Virus record (IMG/VR): IMGVR_UViG_2547132077_000009
From: a virus
Lineage: Duplodnaviria > Heunggongvirae > Uroviricota > Caudoviricetes
Reading direction: 5' to 3' (one strand)
DNA length: 7,714 bases
The notes below the pieces were generated by a model. That model was not told where the DNA came from. It made no database searches and worked only from the letters and a program-made list of their open reading frames with translations. The stretch's first letter is position 1; every line of letters starts with the position of its first letter. Made by a program: the position numbers and the translations under genes. Positions 1-7,714 of the stretch are shown one piece after another.

Positions 1-408
1 ATGGCAACTCTTAAATCAATAATGGCAATAACCACCTTAATAATTTCACTCAATGCATACGCAAACACGAATGACATTAAAACTCTTCAAAAACAACTGA
101 AACCATGGCAACCACTAGAAATCACAGCAAAAGATAGCTCTCTTACCGTTGTTCTCCCTGGTAAAAAAATCACATCTGAAGCCTATAATCATTTAATTAT
201 GTCCGGTGTATGCACCCCACTTTGGACACATGACGCTCCTTCTTCATTTTTAAAAAATGTAAGTGAAATCAATATAGTTAACCAATATAAGTCTATTGGA
301 TATACCTTTGAAGACCCATTGACCACATGCAATGAAATCGCTCCTTTAATGGAAAAACCTGCACAAACAGTGGTGTTATCCAAAACTCATACCTACACAG
401 GTAAGTAA
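1..408 (+). CDS. Hypothetical small secreted/periplasmic protein (135 aa) with N-terminal signal peptide; AT-rich; function unknown
   Basis: ORF with ATG at position 1 and TAA at 406-408. N-terminus MATLKSIMAITTLIISLNAYA|NTND has a basic residue, a hydrophobic core and an A-x-A cleavage-type motif, with no lipobox Cys. The mature part has two Cys. GC content is clearly lower than in the adjacent phage genes (19/60 GC in the first 60 nt). Convergent with ogr and followed by the hairpin at 425-448. The window starts at the ATG, so upstream signals are not visible. Confidence 0.55.
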   Translation: MATLKSIMAITTLIISLNAYANTNDIKTLQKQLKPWQPLEITAKDSSLTVVLPGKKITSEAYNHLIMSGVCTPLWTHDAPSSFLKNVSEINIVNQYKSIGYTFEDPLTTCNEIAPLMEKPAQTVVLSKTHTYTGK

Positions 409-424
409 ATAGCTCAAATAAGAT

Positions 425-448
425 AAAGCCCCTCGACTGAGGGGCTTT
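425..448. terminator. Bidirectional rho-independent terminator between the convergent ORF 1-408 and ogr
   Basis: Perfect 10-bp inverted repeat AAAGCCCCTC (425-434) / GAGGGGCTTT (439-448) with loop GACT. It is followed by CTGTTTG on the plus strand and by ATCTTATTTG on the minus strand. It lies 17 nt after the plus-ORF stop and 10 nt after the ogr stop. Confidence 0.6.
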
Positions 449-458
449 CTGTTTGTAA

Positions 459-677
459 TTACATCCACATAATTTGCTGCCCTGACGGCAACGGATGCGG
501 CCTCACGGCGTGGACTTCTCCCGGCTTCACGATGTATCGCTGTACCGACTCATAAGTGATGAACGTGGCGCTGCAATTCACGTTCTGACACTGGTGATAA
601 CGCTCTTTTGTCGTGTCAGTGATATAGCGGCTTGTACGCGCATGTGCGGCATGCTGGCATAAAGGACAATGAAACAT
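459..677 (-). CDS. ogr: Ogr, P2-type late-gene transcription activator (72 aa, Cys4 zinc finger)
   Basis: Translation from the ATG at 677-675 gives MFHCPLCQHAAHARTSRYITDTTKERYHQCQNVNCSATFITYESVQRYIVKPGEVHAVRPHPLPSGQQIMWM, which matches P2 Ogr as I recall it, with the C-x2-C-x22-C-x4-C zinc-binding motif. A GAGG Shine-Dalgarno sits about 8 nt upstream of this ATG. The 97-aa version in the ORF track (start at 752) adds an AT-rich leader that begins immediately after the D stop. Confidence 0.85.
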   Translation of the reverse strand: MFHCPLCQHAAHARTSRYITDTTKERYHQCQNVNCSATFITYESVQRYIVKPGEVHAVRPHPLPSGQQIMWM

Positions 678-711
678 CGCGAGCACCTCTTCCGGTTTTG
701 TTGATGGTGCC

Positions 712-740
712 ATTTTAGTTAATTTATCCTTATAAAACAA
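712..740 (-). promoter_or_regulatory. Candidate sigma70 promoter for ogr in the D-ogr spacer
   Basis: On the minus strand: -35 TTGTTT (740-735), 17-bp spacer, -10 TAAAAT (717-712), about 35 nt upstream of the ogr ATG, in an AT-rich stretch. Sequence-motif inference only. Confidence 0.3.
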
Positions 741-758
741 ACAGATAAACAATAGACA

Positions 759-2415: not shown

Positions 2416-4863
2416 TTAACCGTCATGCATCATGCTGGCACGAGCGCGCGCACGTTTATCCCGCTCGTATTTTTCGAGCGCATCCTGTAACTGGCGGTCA
2501 AGCTGTGTCCCCGGCGCAGTGCCACCCGTCAGGCTGATGTGATATTCGTTTTTACTCTGGTCCACATAAGAGCGGCCAGCCGGTGCCGTGACCGGCTGAT
2601 AAGCCTGATAGCCTGCATAAGAGCTGGTCGCCGGAATATAACCACCGCTGCCATACGTGGCGGCTTGAGTTCTGGCGGCGGTCTGGTCAAGTGTGTCTGA
2701 CTCTTTGTTGATAACACCGAGTTTTTCCAGTACCCAGTCAATACCACTGCGCAGTTTGTTGAACGCATTAAGCGGCAGCATCAGCGCGTCAGCCAGTGCC
2801 TGCCCGAACATGACGCCCGTGTCACGGCAACGGTTCAGGGTGTCCTGGGTGGCTTTGACCGGGGCAATCAGGTTTTTAAACCACTGCCACGCGGCCTGTA
2901 ACTTTTCACCCAGCCAGTCAAACACCGGTTTCAGTGGCGTGAACAGCTCCCCCACCGGCGCAAATGCCGCTTTCAGCCCTTCCACCACACCGCCAAAAAA
3001 TGCGCTGACAGGCTCCCAGTATTTACGGATAAGCAACGCCCCGGCGACAATTGCGGCCACCACGGCCACAACCGGCCAGCTAATAGCCCCGATGGCGGTC
3101 ATAACAGCACTGCCAACCGTCGTGAAGACTGCCCCCATTGCGCCTGCTGCCGCGATGATGGCATTGATGCCGGTGATAACCGGCCAGGCGACAAGACCAA
3201 TGGCACCGATGATGCCAATAAGCGCCAGTGCGCCACCGACAATGAGGCCGATGGTTGACGCCAGTGATTTGTTTTTCTTGATCCAGCCGTCGAGTTTTAA
3301 CACATACTTTGTGGCCGTCTGCGTGAGATTACGCAGCGCGCCTTCCTGCTGGTCAAACAGGTCAGTCCCCACCGCCTCATAAGCGGACTGAAACTCCTTA
3401 AAGTCACCGCCGAGGTTGTCCTGCATGATATTTACCAGCTCGGCAGTCTTCCCGTTTGAGGCTTTAAACGCAGCGGTCAGTTTGTCCAGCTTTCCGGTTG
3501 AGGCGGCGGTCATCAGCACGGCGGCGGCTGAGCTGGCCTCCTCCCCGAAAATAGTTTTCATGTATTCAGCCTGCTGGGCAGTACCGAGCCGGTTTTTCTC
3601 AAAACTGGCCTGCATTTCTTTCAGAATGGTAAATATTGGCCGGGTATTTCCCTTGCTGTCTGAGGTTTTCACGCCAAGCTCTTTGAGTGCATCCCATGCT
3701 TTTCCCGTTGGTGCCTGCAGGCGACTTAACACGGCACGGCTTCCCGTCCCCGCCATTGAGCCTGTAATTTTTGCATCATGCAGCGCCCCGACCATTGCGG
3801 CGGTTTCTTCAATGCTGACACCGGCATTTTTTGCCACAGGTGCGGCATAGGTCAGCGCATCGCTCATGCCGTCAAAATCGGCGGCGGTTTTGTTCATCGT
3901 CATGGAGAGAACATCCCCGATATGAGCGACCTTATCGTTTGAAAGCTGAAAGGCGGATTTCATCCCCATCAGCAGGGCAGCGTTTTCTTCCATCGTGCGA
4001 CGGTTCGCCAGCGCCATATTCAGCGTGACCGGCGTTGCCGCCTGAATGGCATCAACATCCCCACCGGCTTTCGCAATAATAATCTGCGCACCGGCTGCAT
4101 CATCTGCCGAGGCGGCGGTATTGTCGCCGAGCTGGCGCGCCTGTTTGCGTAGTGCAGCCATTTCGGCGGAGTCTTTTGCCACTCCGAGCACGGCCTGCAA
4201 TTCTGAGTTTTTCTGCGCAAACTCATAACCGGGCATCAGCAGCTTAACTCCGGCCATCGTTCCCGCAGCAGCAATCCCCACACCGGCAGCACCCACTGAG
4301 GCCATATTTCCGGCCAGTTCCTTGCCTGCCTGATAACGCTGTTTGACTGCGTTAAGTTTTGCCTGTTGTGCACTGACACGCGCCAGCGCGTCACGCTGTC
4401 GGTTAAGCTGTGCGGTGGTTTCACTGATACGGTTTTTCAGTCCCTGCTCATCATGTGCAAGATTGCGGGTATTAATTCCCACAGCGGCCAGTTCCCGCTG
4501 CTGGCGTTTAACGGAATCCGTCAGGCGGTTATATTTCGCCTGTAAGTCCTCCGCCGCACGCTTTGCGGATTCCAGCACTTTCGCCTGAGCACGGGTCGGA
4601 CGTTCGGTGTTTTTAAACTGTGTGGCAAGGGCTTCGGCCTCCTGCCGAGCCTTTTCAAGTGCATGACCAGTCACGGCGAGCTGTGCACTGGTCTTGCGAA
4701 ATCCCTCAATACGGGATGCCTGACCGTTCAGCTCGCGCAGTGATTTTTGTGTTTCCCGGATATCCCCCGACAGCGACTTGCTCGCTGTGCGGATGGATTT
4801 AAACGGGCGGGATGCCTGGTCAACAGCCCTGAGCAATACCTGTAATTTTACATTGTTACTCAT
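2416..4863 (-). CDS. T: gpT, tail tape measure protein (815 aa)
   Basis: Largest ORF in the operon, same length as P2 gpT. The N-terminal part is Q/R/A-rich with a coiled-coil-like character. An Ala/Gly/Ile-rich hydrophobic block of ~80 residues (residues ~533-612, nt ~3028-3267) is typical of tape measure proteins. The start ATG (4863-4861) overlaps the E+E' stop. Confidence 0.9.
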   Translation of the reverse strand: MSNNVKLQVLLRAVDQASRPFKSIRTASKSLSGDIRETQKSLRELNGQASRIEGFRKTSAQLAVTGHALEKARQEAEALATQFKNTERPTRAQAKVLESAKRAAEDLQAKYNRLTDSVKRQQRELAAVGINTRNLAHDEQGLKNRISETTAQLNRQRDALARVSAQQAKLNAVKQRYQAGKELAGNMASVGAAGVGIAAAGTMAGVKLLMPGYEFAQKNSELQAVLGVAKDSAEMAALRKQARQLGDNTAASADDAAGAQIIIAKAGGDVDAIQAATPVTLNMALANRRTMEENAALLMGMKSAFQLSNDKVAHIGDVLSMTMNKTAADFDGMSDALTYAAPVAKNAGVSIEETAAMVGALHDAKITGSMAGTGSRAVLSRLQAPTGKAWDALKELGVKTSDSKGNTRPIFTILKEMQASFEKNRLGTAQQAEYMKTIFGEEASSAAAVLMTAASTGKLDKLTAAFKASNGKTAELVNIMQDNLGGDFKEFQSAYEAVGTDLFDQQEGALRNLTQTATKYVLKLDGWIKKNKSLASTIGLIVGGALALIGIIGAIGLVAWPVITGINAIIAAAGAMGAVFTTVGSAVMTAIGAISWPVVAVVAAIVAGALLIRKYWEPVSAFFGGVVEGLKAAFAPVGELFTPLKPVFDWLGEKLQAAWQWFKNLIAPVKATQDTLNRCRDTGVMFGQALADALMLPLNAFNKLRSGIDWVLEKLGVINKESDTLDQTAARTQAATYGSGGYIPATSSYAGYQAYQPVTAPAGRSYVDQSKNEYHISLTGGTAPGTQLDRQLQDALEKYERDKRARARASMMHDG

Positions 4864-5283
4864 TCGTGTTTCCGCTTCGCCGGAGCGCCTTTTCGCGCCA
4901 TGTGATGAGTTCGGTCAGGCTCATGGGATACAGTTCTGATGGCGGCCAGTGAAATATCACTGCCACATCCGCCATCAGGTCATCGACCGACAGATTTTTC
5001 GGAAACGTCACTGCACCGAGTTCGGCGACAAAAAACCGACCACCTTACCAGCCAGCGCCACAAGGTCAGGCAGTTCCAGTGCGGCGACTTCCTGCTCGGT
5101 CAGCATCGGTGCCGTCATGCGCGGCAACACCTTAATCAGTGCATCAACTTCGGAGTTTGCGACCGCTGCCAGACTGACACCGCGCAGCGTCCCGGCATTG
5201 GGTTTCATCAGCGTGACCTGTTCGATGACCTGCTCACCACGCTTGACCGGATTGTCCAGGGTAATGACATTTTCTTTGTTCAT
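4856..5283 (-). CDS. E+E': gpE+E', tail assembly chaperone made by programmed -1 frameshift (about 142 aa)
   Basis: The slippery heptamer T TTT TTG (5035-5029, minus strand) lies near the 3' end of E. In the -1 frame an open extension (VAELGAVTFPKNLSVDDLMADVAVIFHWPPSELYPMSLTELITWREKALRRSGNTNE) runs to TAA at 4858-4856, which overlaps the T start as ATGAGTAA. The 142-aa total agrees with P2 E+E' as I recall it. This is analogous to lambda G/GT. Confidence 0.7.
5008..5283 (-). CDS. E: gpE, tail assembly chaperone (91 aa)
   Basis: 91-aa ORF between the tube gene and the tape measure gene, matching the P2 E length. It ends ...GFLSPNSVQ with TGA at 5010-5008. The slippery site sits six codons before the stop. 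Confidence 0.85.
   Translation of the reverse strand: MNKENVITLDNPVKRGEQVIEQVTLMKPNAGTLRGVSLAAVANSEVDALIKVLPRMTAPMLTEQEVAALELPDLVALAGKVVGFLSPNSVQ
5029..5035 (-). other. -1 ribosomal frameshift slippery heptamer TTTTTTG (E to E')
   Basis: Plus strand reads c-aaaaaa at 5029-5035, which is TTTTTTG on the minus strand, phased as T TTT TTG in the E reading frame. This is the heptamer I recall being reported for P2 E/E'. Confidence 0.7.
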
Positions 5284-7120: not shown

Positions 7121-7714
7121 CTATTTGTCCCGGTTGGCTAAGGGATGACACAATTTATTCTTTGTCGCTGATGAGGGAAATTTTTTATAGAGCGTGGACA
7201 GACCAATATCAAAAATCAGTGCCACGCGTTGACGTGACTCCCCTGCAGCCAGCAAACGCCCGGCCTGCTCCCACTCACTCGTGGTGAGTTTAGGACGTCT
7301 GCCACCAATACGACCTTTGGCTCTGGCCGCTTCCAGCCCGGCCCGAGTCCGCTCGACAATAAGTTCTCGTTCCATTTCAGCCAGGGCACCCATCACATGA
7401 AAGAAAAAACGCCCCATCGGCGTGCTGGTATCAATAGCATCTGTCAGGCTGCGAAAATTAACGCCGCGTTCGCGCAGTTCCTCAACCAGAATGACCAGAT
7501 GCCGCATACTACGCCCCAGCCTGTCCAGCTTCCAGACCACCAGAGTGTCACCTGCTGATAATGTTCTGAGCAGTTTTTTCAGTCCCGGTCGGTCGGACTT
7601 CGTGCCGCTGATTTTATCCTCAAAAATCAGCTCACATCCTGCACACTCCAGCGCATTACGCTGCAATTCCGTATTCTGGTCATTTGTTGACACGCGGACA
7701 TAGCCAATAAGCAT
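7121..7714 (-). CDS. Site-specific DNA invertase, serine recombinase of the Hin/Gin/Cin/Pin family (197 aa)
   Basis: N-terminus MLIGYVRVSTNDQNTELQRNALECAGCELIFEDKISG... is the canonical invertase catalytic domain (nucleophile Ser9 in the YVRVSTNDQ motif; GDTLVVWKLDRLGRS motif). The C-terminal helix-turn-helix ends ...STLYKKFPSS, like Hin (...STLYRYFPASS). The start codon lies at the window edge (7714-7712), so its promoter and crossover sites are outside the window. Confidence 0.9.
   Translation of the reverse strand: MLIGYVRVSTNDQNTELQRNALECAGCELIFEDKISGTKSDRPGLKKLLRTLSAGDTLVVWKLDRLGRSMRHLVILVEELRERGVNFRSLTDAIDTSTPMGRFFFHVMGALAEMERELIVERTRAGLEAARAKGRIGGRRPKLTTSEWEQAGRLLAAGESRQRVALIFDIGLSTLYKKFPSSATKNKLCHPLANRDK

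What the first reader, a model, noticed from the sequence alone, without database searches (positions are those of the whole stretch)
1..408. AT-rich signal-peptide ORF of unknown function abutting the prophage end
The sequence shows a complete 135-aa ORF with a clear signal peptide and a composition well below that of the neighbouring phage genes, convergent with ogr across a shared hairpin. In P2 as I recall it, ogr is the last gene before the attachment site, so this ORF lies where the prophage meets its flank. It could be a horizontally acquired moron (for example a periplasmic superinfection-exclusion or lysogenic-conversion factor) or an AT-rich host or island gene. I cannot place it in any family by eye. 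It is the only gene in the window without an obvious assignment.
Basis: partly seen in the sequence, partly recalled or inferred. Interest (0 to 1): 0.55.

Follow-up and report, generated by a model that had tools for sequence, protein, structure and literature searches.

The report
Secreted accessory protein of P2-like phages
The ORF is a real, phage-carried accessory gene for a small protein exported to the periplasm. It belongs to an uncharacterised family that P2-like phages keep beside their tail/ogr genes or in their repressor operon, so it is a good but unproven candidate for a lysogen-protecting (phage-exclusion) factor.

Summary
**Observation:** confirmed. Bases 1-408 (+) encode a 135-aa protein with a Sec-type signal peptide. 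GC is 35.8%, against 52-56% for the neighbouring phage genes. The ORF is convergent with ogr across a stable hairpin at 425-448.

**Not a host gene:**
- Virion genomes (Yersinia phage P37, Salmonella phage FSL SP-004) have int-attP-ORF-ogr.
- In E. coli lysogens the att core lies about 210 bp upstream of the ATG.
- All 5426 E. coli genomes have the attB core, but only 44 have the ORF.
- A prophage at the same site lacks it, which defines a ~511-bp cassette.

**Selection:** dN/dS is 0.07-0.20, and alleles are swapped between near-identical backbones.

**Family:** phrog_3807 (unknown function), at least 178 clusters.
- No Pfam, NCBIfam or PADLOC match.
- Members as low as about 20-25% identity lie next to gpD/ogr in P2-like phages of many genera.
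- In two lineages the member follows the repressor gene.
- One fusion protein joins it through membrane segments to a WYL/BRCT module.

**Best reading:** a lysogen-expressed periplasmic accessory protein, probably acting in envelope-level phage exclusion. It would be analogous to K139 Glo but is not homologous to it. Function is inferred, not shown.

The parts
1..408 (+). Complete ORF (135 aa plus stop), a member of phrog_3807. It is the cargo of a ~511-bp cassette that begins 91 bp upstream of the window.
   Evidence: ORF. (phrog_3807, E=3e-60, full length). (dN/dS 0.07-0.20). (cassette boundaries L002 5910-6420, equal to window -91..420).
1..63 (+). Predicted Sec signal peptide (MATLKSIMAITTLIISLNAYA, with cleavage before N22). 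There is no lipobox.
   Evidence: Read directly from the sequence, plus hydropathy. An N-terminal hydrophobic segment is present in 108 of 109 family members.
64..405 (+). Mature domain: 114 aa, 12.7 kDa, pI about 8. Predicted order of elements is alpha, beta, beta, alpha, alpha, beta, beta, alpha, alpha, beta. Family-wide conserved residues are C71 and C110 (99%), G100, N94 and P38.
   Evidence: AlphaFold2, pLDDT 89.3, pTM 0.78, core above 95. (conservation). (mass and pI).
425..448 (.). GC-rich hairpin (AAAGCCCCTCGACTGAGGGGCTTT) shared by the ORF and ogr. It is a bidirectional intrinsic terminator and corresponds to the ogr/F-operon terminator annotated in P2.
   Evidence: terminator-like on both strands. 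(z = -4.4 and -3.9). (P2 feature 'rho-independent terminator for ogr transcript and F operon').
459..677 (-). ogr, the late-gene activator (72 aa). It is the convergent neighbour and marks the end of the phage's late region.
   Evidence: Ogr_Delta, E=2.2e-21. (RefSeq ogrK, 219 nt).

Best explanation
The ORF is the cargo of a small cassette carried by a lineage of P2-like (Peduoviridae) phages. The cassette lies between the Int arm site of attP and the ogr/tail-operon terminator.

**Shown:**
- The gene travels with the phage.
- It is under purifying selection.
- It is insulated by a terminator hairpin on each side.
- It lies on the strand opposite the late genes and has no Ogr-type activator site.
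- It encodes a protein with a Sec-type signal peptide, no lipobox and two near-invariant cysteines.
- It belongs to a large uncharacterised family (phrog_3807). In most sampled cases, members sit next to gpD/ogr, or directly downstream of the immunity repressor, in P2-like phages. Some members are tethered by membrane segments to cytoplasmic modules.

**Inferred:**
- The gene is transcribed from its own weak sigma-70 promoter in the lysogen.
- The 12.7-kDa product is exported to the periplasm and stabilised by a disulfide.
- There it binds a target at the envelope to protect the lysogen. The most likely action is blocking a step after adsorption of incoming phage, such as tail-tip penetration or DNA entry. 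That is the role annotated for the non-homologous periplasmic Glo protein of the P2-like Vibrio phage K139.
For: **Phage-borne**
- Virion genomes P37 (98.7% nt) and FSL SP-004 have int-attP-ORF-ogr.
- The lysogen junction places the att core about 210 bp upstream of the ATG.
- The same layout occurs in Serratia, Citrobacter, Rosenbergiella, Cronobacter, Klebsiella, Dickeya and Burkholderia phages.

**Dispensable cassette**
- An ORF-less prophage at the same site defines a ~511-bp insert.
- P2 has nothing between the ogr terminator and the Int arm.
- 44 of 5426 E. coli genomes carry the ORF, while at least 503 have the ogr end.

**Insulation and expression signals**
- Hairpins lie on both sides.
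- The upstream layout is conserved: terminator, TATAA(A/C) box, AAGGA, ATG.
- There is no TGT-N12-ACA site.

**Export**
- Signal peptide in 108 of 109 members, and Cys pair 99% conserved.
- The domain is C-terminal to signal peptides or TM segments in fusion proteins.

**Lysogeny link**
- In L029 and L034 the member follows an HTH repressor-type gene on the same strand. This mirrors K139 cI-orf2(BRCT)-glo-int.
- P0119 fuses the BRCT/WYL neighbour (phrog_2561) to this domain.

**Signs of an arms race**
- Allele replacement in near-identical backbones: ogr dS is 0.095 while ORF dS is 0.95.
- Two alleles (at least 98% and about 77% identity) occur in E. coli.

**Precedents**
- P2's AT-rich conversion genes tin and old are annotated as blocking other phages.
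- Glo is annotated 'periplasmic protein; involved in phage exclusion'.
Against: - There is no experimental or transcriptomic evidence for expression, localisation or phenotype.
- The promoter is weak by consensus. The scan tool found none upstream of the ATG. The -10 box of the window allele is TATAAC.
- No PADLOC, Pfam or NCBIfam match.
- No homology to Glo.
- No structural neighbour that would suggest a mechanism.
- Some family members lie outside recognisable phages: an Enterobacter plasmid, a Paracoccus contig and a metagenomic contig.
- A soluble periplasmic protein could just as well be an inhibitor or immunity protein, or serve the phage's own cycle.
Confidence: 0.45

Rival explanations
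1. It is a periplasmic inhibitor or immunity protein. It would protect the lysogen from envelope-acting toxins or enzymes, such as lysozymes, T6SS peptidoglycan effectors or colicin-type toxins, rather than from phages.
For: - It is small, exported and carries a conserved Cys pair, like many periplasmic inhibitors.
- One family member (P0127) is fused to a VasI type VI secretion-associated domain.
- Allelic diversification fits an antagonistic interaction.
Against: - No sequence match to any Pfam or NCBIfam inhibitor or immunity family.
- The strong and ancient linkage to the gpD/ogr/repressor region of P2-like phages is better explained by a phage-related role.
- The VasI fusion is a single case.
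Confidence: 0.15
2. It serves the phage's own lytic cycle. One possibility is a periplasmic factor that assists lysis or envelope remodelling. Another is a factor that prevents progeny from injecting into the dying cell or its debris.
For: - Its position next to the tail-operon end (gpD) is conserved across Peduoviridae, from Enterobacterales to Burkholderia.
- In the circular phage form it lies downstream of C-int on the same strand.
Against: - It is on the strand opposite the late operon and has no Ogr-type activator site.
- It is separated from int by a terminator.
- It is absent from P2 itself and from most ogr-bearing E. coli prophages, so it is not needed for growth.
- In two lineages it lies in the repressor operon.
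Confidence: 0.15
3. It is a lysogenic-conversion factor aimed at the animal or plant host (virulence or colonisation), like toxin genes placed next to att sites in other temperate phages.
For: - It is an AT-rich secreted cargo at a prophage end.
- Carriers include human, pig, poultry and dog isolates.
- From my own knowledge, not tested here: the ctx gene of phage phiCTX lies next to attP.
Against: - A Sec signal alone delivers the protein only to the periplasm.
- The family occurs in plant-associated, environmental and metagenomic bacteria (Dickeya, Rosenbergiella, Burkholderia, Paracoccus).
- It shows no similarity to any toxin or effector family.
Confidence: 0.07
4. It is an ordinary AT-rich host or genomic-island gene that merely abuts the prophage.
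For: Only its position near the prophage end and its low GC.
Against: - It is present in packaged phage genomes.
- It lies on the phage side of the att core.
- The empty attB core is present in 5426 of 5426 E. coli genomes, but the ORF is in only 44, always with ogr.
Confidence: 0.01

Closest known systems
Glo of Vibrio cholerae P2-like phage K139 (phrog_7270)
   Same: - It comes from a P2-like phage.
- It is about 137 aa with a signal peptide, and is annotated as periplasmic and involved in phage exclusion.
- It lies in the lysogenic operon after a BRCT-domain ORF. This matches the order regulator, BRCT protein, family member seen in L029.
   Different: - No detectable homology: hhalign probability is 2.6% and aligns the signal peptide only, and BLASTP finds no alignment.
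- It belongs to a different PHROG.
- In the window's lineage the gene stands alone beyond attP, with its own terminator, and is not in the C-int operon.
AT-rich lysogenic-conversion genes of P2 (old, tin, Z/fun) and the P2 accessory-gene hotspots
   Same: - They are AT-rich, non-essential cargo in an otherwise 52-56% GC phage.
- They are present in some relatives and absent in others.
- P2's old and tin are annotated as blocking other phages.
[quoted passage not shown]
   Different: - The slot is different: between the ogr terminator and the Int arm of attP. This is neither gpA-gpQ nor G-FI.
- The product is exported and has no similarity to Old, Tin or any PADLOC model.
- Unlike typical hotspot cargo, the same family recurs at this position across very distant P2-like phages.
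phrog_3807 (uncharacterised phage protein family, includes Burkholderia phage KS14 gp9 and Serratia phage KSP20 orf1)
   Same: - Full-length HMM match, E=3e-60.
- KS14 gp9 and KSP20 orf1 are tblastn and Foldseek relatives, and both are convergent with gpD.
   Different: Nothing is known about the function of any member. The window protein is simply the E. coli / P37 allele.
T4 Spackle and other envelope-level superinfection-exclusion proteins (T5 Llp, phi80 Cor, HK97 gp15). Named from my own knowledge.
   Same: They are small phage-encoded proteins that act at the envelope to stop a second phage after or at adsorption. Spackle is also periplasmic.
   Different: - No sequence or fold similarity was detected in any search.
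- Llp and Cor are lipoproteins, and the window protein has no lipobox.
- HK97 gp15 is an inner-membrane protein.

Membership tests
phrog_3807 (uncharacterised phage protein family) | Significant full-length match to the family HMM | tested here: met
   E=3e-60, residues 1-135 against profile positions 1-135 of 135. Distant members and fusion proteins also match.
Phage moron / lysogenic-conversion cassette | Lies within the phage genome (between the att sites) and is packaged | tested here: met
   int-attP-ORF-ogr in the virion genomes P37 and FSL SP-004. The att core lies about 210 bp upstream in lysogens.
Phage moron / lysogenic-conversion cassette | Present in some closely related phages and absent at the same position in others | tested here: met
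   E. coli H2 has a prophage at the same fieF site without the ORF, which defines a 511-bp insert. P2 has no gene in this position. 44 genomes carry the ORF, while at least 503 have the ogr end.
Phage moron / lysogenic-conversion cassette | Base composition deviates from the phage backbone | tested here: met
   GC is 0.358 (GC3 0.287), against 0.52-0.565 for the neighbouring genes.
Phage moron / lysogenic-conversion cassette | Own transcription signals (promoter and terminator) | tested here: inconclusive
   Terminator hairpins on both sides are significant. Only a conserved -10-like TATAA(A/C) box and an AAGGA Shine-Dalgarno sequence are present upstream. The scan called no consensus promoter there.
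Phage moron / lysogenic-conversion cassette | Expressed from the repressed prophage and changes the host phenotype | not testable with these tools
   No transcriptome or phenotype data were found. The only indirect support is the repressor-operon position in L029 and L034.
Sec-exported soluble periplasmic protein | N-terminal positive region, hydrophobic core, small residues at -3/-1, no lipobox cysteine | tested here: met
   MATLK, then SIMAITTLIISL, then A-Y-A before N. Cysteines occur only at positions 71 and 110. 108 of 109 members have the hydrophobic N-terminus. Assessed by inspection and hydropathy, not with a trained predictor.
Sec-exported soluble periplasmic protein | Domain lies outside the cytoplasm in multi-domain relatives | tested here: met
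   In fusion proteins the domain is always C-terminal to a signal peptide or to TM segments. Crude topology is consistent with an outside location in 6 of 8 and ambiguous in 2.
K139 Glo family (phrog_7270) | Sequence or profile homology to Glo | tested here: not met
   hhalign probability is 2.6% and aligns the signal peptide only. BLASTP finds no alignment. The two proteins belong to different PHROGs.
Known anti-phage defence systems (PADLOC-DB) | Match to any defence-system protein model | tested here: not met
   0 families at E up to 1.
Pfam DUF4431 (UniRef label on the Dickeya member P0028) | Match to the Pfam model | tested here: not met
   No Pfam hit for P0028 or for the window protein at E up to 10. 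None of the 109 members hit it at E up to 0.01.
Known periplasmic inhibitor or exclusion folds with solved structures | Structural similarity of the confident model to a solved structure | tested here: not met

The most novel reading that the evidence does not exclude
phrog_3807 may define a previously unrecognised periplasmic module of the lysogeny programme of P2-like phages, with a fold not seen among solved structures. It would act as a new type of envelope-level exclusion or sensing factor. In some lineages it works with, or is physically fused through the inner membrane to, a cytoplasmic WYL/BRCT protein. That would form a trans-envelope system parallel to the orf2-glo pair of K139.
Probability: 0.3. 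Interest if true: 0.65.

Novelty: new member of a known kind. Interest (0 to 1): 0.45.

Why it matters
P2-like prophages are among the commonest prophages of Enterobacterales and are a proven source of anti-phage genes. That work has concentrated on cytoplasmic systems in two hotspots.

This gene marks a third slot, between attP and ogr, inside the interval already reported as a minor hotspot. It also marks an exported protein family that P2-like phages have kept near gpD/ogr or in the repressor operon, from E. coli to Burkholderia. The family has no annotation and no structural neighbour, and it shows allele replacement suggestive of an arms race.

If it is an exclusion factor, it would add a new periplasmic mechanism and a compact 12.7-kDa tool for studying how contractile-tail phages cross the envelope. 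If it is not, it remains an ordinary hypothetical moron.

Tried and rejected
**Searches that found nothing**
- Pfam, NCBIfam and PADLOC scans of the protein gave no hits. A Pfam scan of all 109 aligned members also gave none.
- The UniRef label 'DUF4431' on a Dickeya member was not reproduced at E up to 10.
- PDB sequence searches with the single protein and with the profile found nothing significant.
- An Rfam scan of the junction, ORF and ogr region found nothing above gathering score.

**Structure**
- The first AlphaFold run, with 13 close homologues, was unusable (pLDDT 37). It was rescued with a 109-sequence alignment.
- The afdb50 library was unavailable.

**Locus retrieval**
- The search for related loci with the deep alignment failed because no conserved stretch was available. 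With the close alignment it returned only one locus.

**Hypotheses tested and rejected**
- Homology to K139 Glo was tested and rejected.
- An Ogr-dependent late promoter (TGT-N12-ACA) was searched for and not found.

**Literature**
- The PhiESI preprint that mentions fieF-cpxP is irrelevant. PhiESI is a siphovirus at tRNA-Arg, and the fieF-cpxP prophage was used only as a qPCR marker.
- Casjens & Grose 2016 and Nesper et al. 1999 are not held in the library.

Full report

Yes. Bases 1-408 (+) form a complete ATG-initiated ORF of 135 aa.

- **Signal peptide.** The N-terminus (MATLK, then SIMAITTLIISL, then NAYA before N22) has the n-region, h-region and AXA layout of a Sec signal peptide. It has no lipobox cysteine. 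The hydrophobic core scores 2.33 on the Kyte-Doolittle scale.
- **Composition.** The ORF has 35.8% GC (GC3 28.7%). ogr has 51.6% and the tail genes have 55-56.5%.
- **Arrangement.** It is convergent with ogr (459-677, minus strand; Ogr_Delta E=2.2e-21).
- **Shared hairpin.** The hairpin at 425-448 scores as terminator-like on both strands. It folds at -20.6 and -18.7 kcal/mol, and none of 200 shuffles did as well.
- **Selection.** Across eight phage and prophage homologues, dN/dS is 0.07-0.20 wherever dS is not saturated. This is a real protein-coding gene, not a chance ORF in AT-rich DNA.

**2. Host or phage?**

Phage.

- **Virion genomes.** Yersinia phage P37 carries the ORF at 98.7% nucleotide identity, in the order C, int, attP, ORF, ogr, D. 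Salmonella phage FSL SP-004 has a 69%-identical protein in the same place.
- **Junction.** In E. coli lysogens the order is pfkA, fieF, att, ORF, ogr, D. Aligning the lysogen junction with the two attP regions places the crossover at GATAAAAAAAACCCCCACATCATGTGGGGG. That is about 210 bp upstream of the ATG, and so outside the window.
- **attB.** The 53-bp core is present in all 5426 complete E. coli genomes. The ORF is in 44 of them: 17 with the window's allele (at least 98% identity) and 27 with a ~77% allele. All copies are single, chromosomal and next to ogr.
- **Site.** The cpxP-fieF intergenic site is a published P2-type integration site, used by Wphi1 in E. coli W.

**3. Anatomy of the cassette**

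E. coli strain H2 has a degraded P2-like prophage at the same site. There the Int arm repeats (GTCCACATAGCGTCCACA) run directly into the ogr terminator.

- A gapped alignment against the ORF-bearing prophage defines the insert as L002 5910-6420. That equals window -91 to 420, about 511 bp.
- In P2 itself, only 4 nt separate the ogr/F-operon terminator from the Int arm.
- The cassette starts with its own hairpin plus T-run (AAAGCCCCAAGCATATGGGGCTTT ATTTTTTTCTTTTTTT; z = -3.4). In the circular phage this would stop read-through from C-int.
- Next come an AT-rich stretch with a -10-like box, a conserved leader (AACCCAATGTTTAATAAGGAT) with an AAGGA Shine-Dalgarno sequence, the ORF, and the pre-existing ogr terminator.
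- This layout is conserved in seven divergent homologues. The hairpin stem and loop differ between them but remain complementary, and the TATAA(A/C)-type box sits at a fixed distance.
- The consensus scan called no promoter there, so the promoter is inferred.
- No Ogr-type TGT-N12-ACA site is present. That argues against late-operon control.

**4. The protein family**

- **First searches.** Pfam, NCBIfam and PADLOC give nothing. PHROGs gives phrog_3807, 'unknown function', at E=3e-60. The word-indexed search found only close enterobacterial relatives.
- **Exhaustive profile search.** This found 178 clusters (at 50% identity) with E up to 1e-3. Most are 120-140 aa.
- **Conservation.** None of 109 aligned members hits Pfam. 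Family-wide, C71 and C110 are 99% conserved, G100 98%, N94 97% and P38 94%. 108 of 109 members have the N-terminal hydrophobic segment.
- **Structure.** With the deep alignment, AlphaFold2 gives a confident model (pLDDT 89.3, pTM 0.78, core above 95). The order of elements is alpha, beta, beta, alpha, alpha, beta, beta, alpha, alpha, beta.
- **Inference.** The conserved Cys pair and the signal peptide point to a disulfide-stabilised periplasmic domain. This is inferred. I could not measure the Cys-Cys distance in the model.

**5. Context across the family**

This is the most informative result. I sampled members across the whole identity range, and most sit in a P2-like phage in the same neighbourhood.

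| Host or source | Layout |
|---|---|
| Serratia, Citrobacter | fieF, ORF, ogr, D |
| Rosenbergiella/Salmonella clade | pstS, ORF, ogr, D (a different att site) |
| Klebsiella, Cronobacter | tRNA, ogr, ORF, D |
| Dickeya | pflB, ORF, two small ORFs, ogr, D |
| Burkholderia KS14 gp9, Serratia KSP20 orf1 | convergent with gpD |
| Metagenomic contig (L030) | ORF, ogr, D |
| Metagenomic contigs (L029, L034) | member follows the repressor-type gene |

- In L029 the order on one strand is an HTH regulator (phrog_8), a WYL/BRCT protein (phrog_2561), the family member and a 92-aa ORF, facing gpD.
- In L034 the order is an HTH repressor-type gene, the member and a 111-aa ORF. These are divergent from an Arc-like repressor and ogr, and again face gpD.
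- Both are lysogenic-operon positions.
- In the window's own lineage, the ORF also lies downstream of C-int on the same strand in the circular phage. It is separated from them by attP and a terminator.
- Exceptions exist: an Enterobacter plasmid locus, a Paracoccus contig next to ImmA-like and Beta_protein genes, an integrase/primase element and an unclear metagenomic contig. The domain is therefore not exclusive to P2-like phages.

**6. Fusions**

- Several representatives carry the domain at the C-terminus, after a signal peptide or TM segments. N-terminal partners include pentapeptide repeats, SH3, a bacterial PH domain and long coiled coils. One member carries a C-terminal VasI domain.
- Crude hydropathy is consistent with an outside location of the domain in 6 of 8 fusions and ambiguous in 2.
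- P0119 (417 aa) consists of phrog_2561 (residues 3-153), TM segments and phrog_3807 (residues 309-410). Its N-terminal module aligns with the L029 BRCT protein at E=5e-11.
- Two genes that are neighbours in one phage are thus fused in another. This suggests they work together across the inner membrane in those lineages.
- The window's phage has no such partner next to the ORF.

**7. Evolutionary dynamics**

- Between E. coli 382634_2f and E. coli E3, ogr differs by dS 0.095 with dN 0. The adjacent ORF differs by dS 0.95 with dN 0.19.
- FSL SP-004 against the Citrobacter prophage shows the same pattern: ogr dS 0.098, ORF dS 1.27.
- Alleles are therefore exchanged between near-identical backbones while each allele stays under purifying selection. 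This is typical of accessory genes engaged in antagonistic interactions. It is suggestive only.

**8. How it most likely works**

- **Shown:** a phage-borne, dispensable, insulated cassette encoding an exported, Cys-pair-containing protein. It belongs to a conserved phage family that lies on the lysogenic strand.
- **Inferred:** expression in the lysogen from a weak promoter of its own, and export to the periplasm. I also infer binding to an envelope-located target that protects the lysogen, most plausibly by blocking a post-adsorption step of an incoming phage.
- **Closest functional precedent:** Glo of the P2-like Vibrio phage K139. It is a 137-aa protein annotated 'periplasmic protein; involved in phage exclusion', and it lies in the operon cI, orf2 (BRCT), glo, int.
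- **Not a Glo relative:** homology is absent. hhalign gives 2.6% probability and BLASTP finds nothing. This is a 'works like' proposal, not membership.
- **Further precedent:** P2's own AT-rich conversion genes tin and old are annotated as blocking other phages.
- **Confidence:** about 0.45 for the exclusion reading. About 0.95 that this is a phage-carried exported accessory protein.
- **Rivals:** a periplasmic inhibitor or immunity protein (0.15), a role in the phage's own lytic cycle (0.15), a host-directed conversion factor (0.07) and a host gene (refuted).

**9. Comparison with what is known, and novelty**

- It is not one of the two well-studied hotspots. It is also not listed explicitly in a survey of thousands of P2-like prophages.
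- The protein is already catalogued as a PHROG and as 'hypothetical protein' in many genomes.
- I rate it a new member of a known kind, namely an AT-rich accessory or conversion gene of a P2-like phage.
- What is new here:
  - the cassette boundaries;
  - the size of the family;
  - the confident model without structural neighbours;
  - the conserved position near gpD/ogr or in the repressor operon;
  - the BRCT fusion;
  - the allele swapping.
- Interest is moderate (0.45). It is a well-defined candidate for a new periplasmic exclusion factor, but no function has been demonstrated.

Noticed in passing
window 7121-7714 (-): A complete 197-aa serine DNA invertase (Resolvase E=2.8e-52 plus HTH_7) lies next to the tail sheath gene FI, in the Z/fun hotspot position. 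The window ends exactly at its start codon. Invertases are reported to be common in this P2 hotspot, usually alongside an invertible tail-fibre segment. That segment would lie beyond the window.
   Followed up: partly
L002 5916-5939 and window 425-448: The two hairpins that flank the cassette share the same stem arms (AAAGCCCC ... GGGGCTTT) but have different loops. The ORF-less prophage has a single such hairpin. This looks like a footprint of insertion at, or duplication of, the ogr terminator.
   Followed up: partly
L002 5786-5838 (about 165-215 bp left of window base 1): The ~53-bp att core is present in all 5426 E. coli genomes. It contains a strong minus-strand terminator, CCCCCACATGATGTGGGGG followed by T8. 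From its position this is the 3' end of cpxP. From my own knowledge that region gives rise to the CpxQ sRNA, so the phage integrates into, and rebuilds, an sRNA 3' end. No Rfam family reached threshold.
   Followed up: partly
window 1-408 compared with 459-677, and homologous loci L006, L003, L014: The mosaicism is sharp. The ORF is replaced by a ~77%-identical allele in prophages whose ogr is almost identical (ogr dS 0.095, ORF dS 0.95). The ~28-nt leader just upstream of the ATG stays nearly invariant across genera.
   Followed up: partly
L014/L015 3736-4655 (Citrobacter freundii prophage): Two further ORFs (187 aa and 119 aa) lie between fieF and the family member. They have no Pfam or PHROG match. 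The same slot may therefore hold more cargo in some phages. I did not determine whether they lie inside the att boundary.
   Followed up: no
window 459-752 (-): The mechanical ORF list extends ogr to a TTG start (97 aa). The annotated and conserved protein is 72 aa, starting at the ATG at 677 (MFHCPLCQ...).
   Followed up: yes
window 4856-5283 (-): The tail-chaperone pair corresponds to P2 E and E+E'. A 91-aa ORF (5008-5283) is followed by a 51-aa ORF (4856-5011) that overlaps the start of the tape-measure gene. In P2 these are joined by a -1 frameshift. The slippery site was not examined.
   Followed up: no
L029 1618-2493, L023 1781-3099, protein P0119: A WYL/BRCT protein (phrog_2561) recurs next to a small periplasmic protein in the lysogenic operons of P2-like phages. 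In K139 the pair is orf2 plus Glo, and in L029 it is the BRCT protein plus a phrog_3807 member. In P0119 the two are fused. Two non-homologous periplasmic partners share the same kind of cytoplasmic neighbour.
   Followed up: partly
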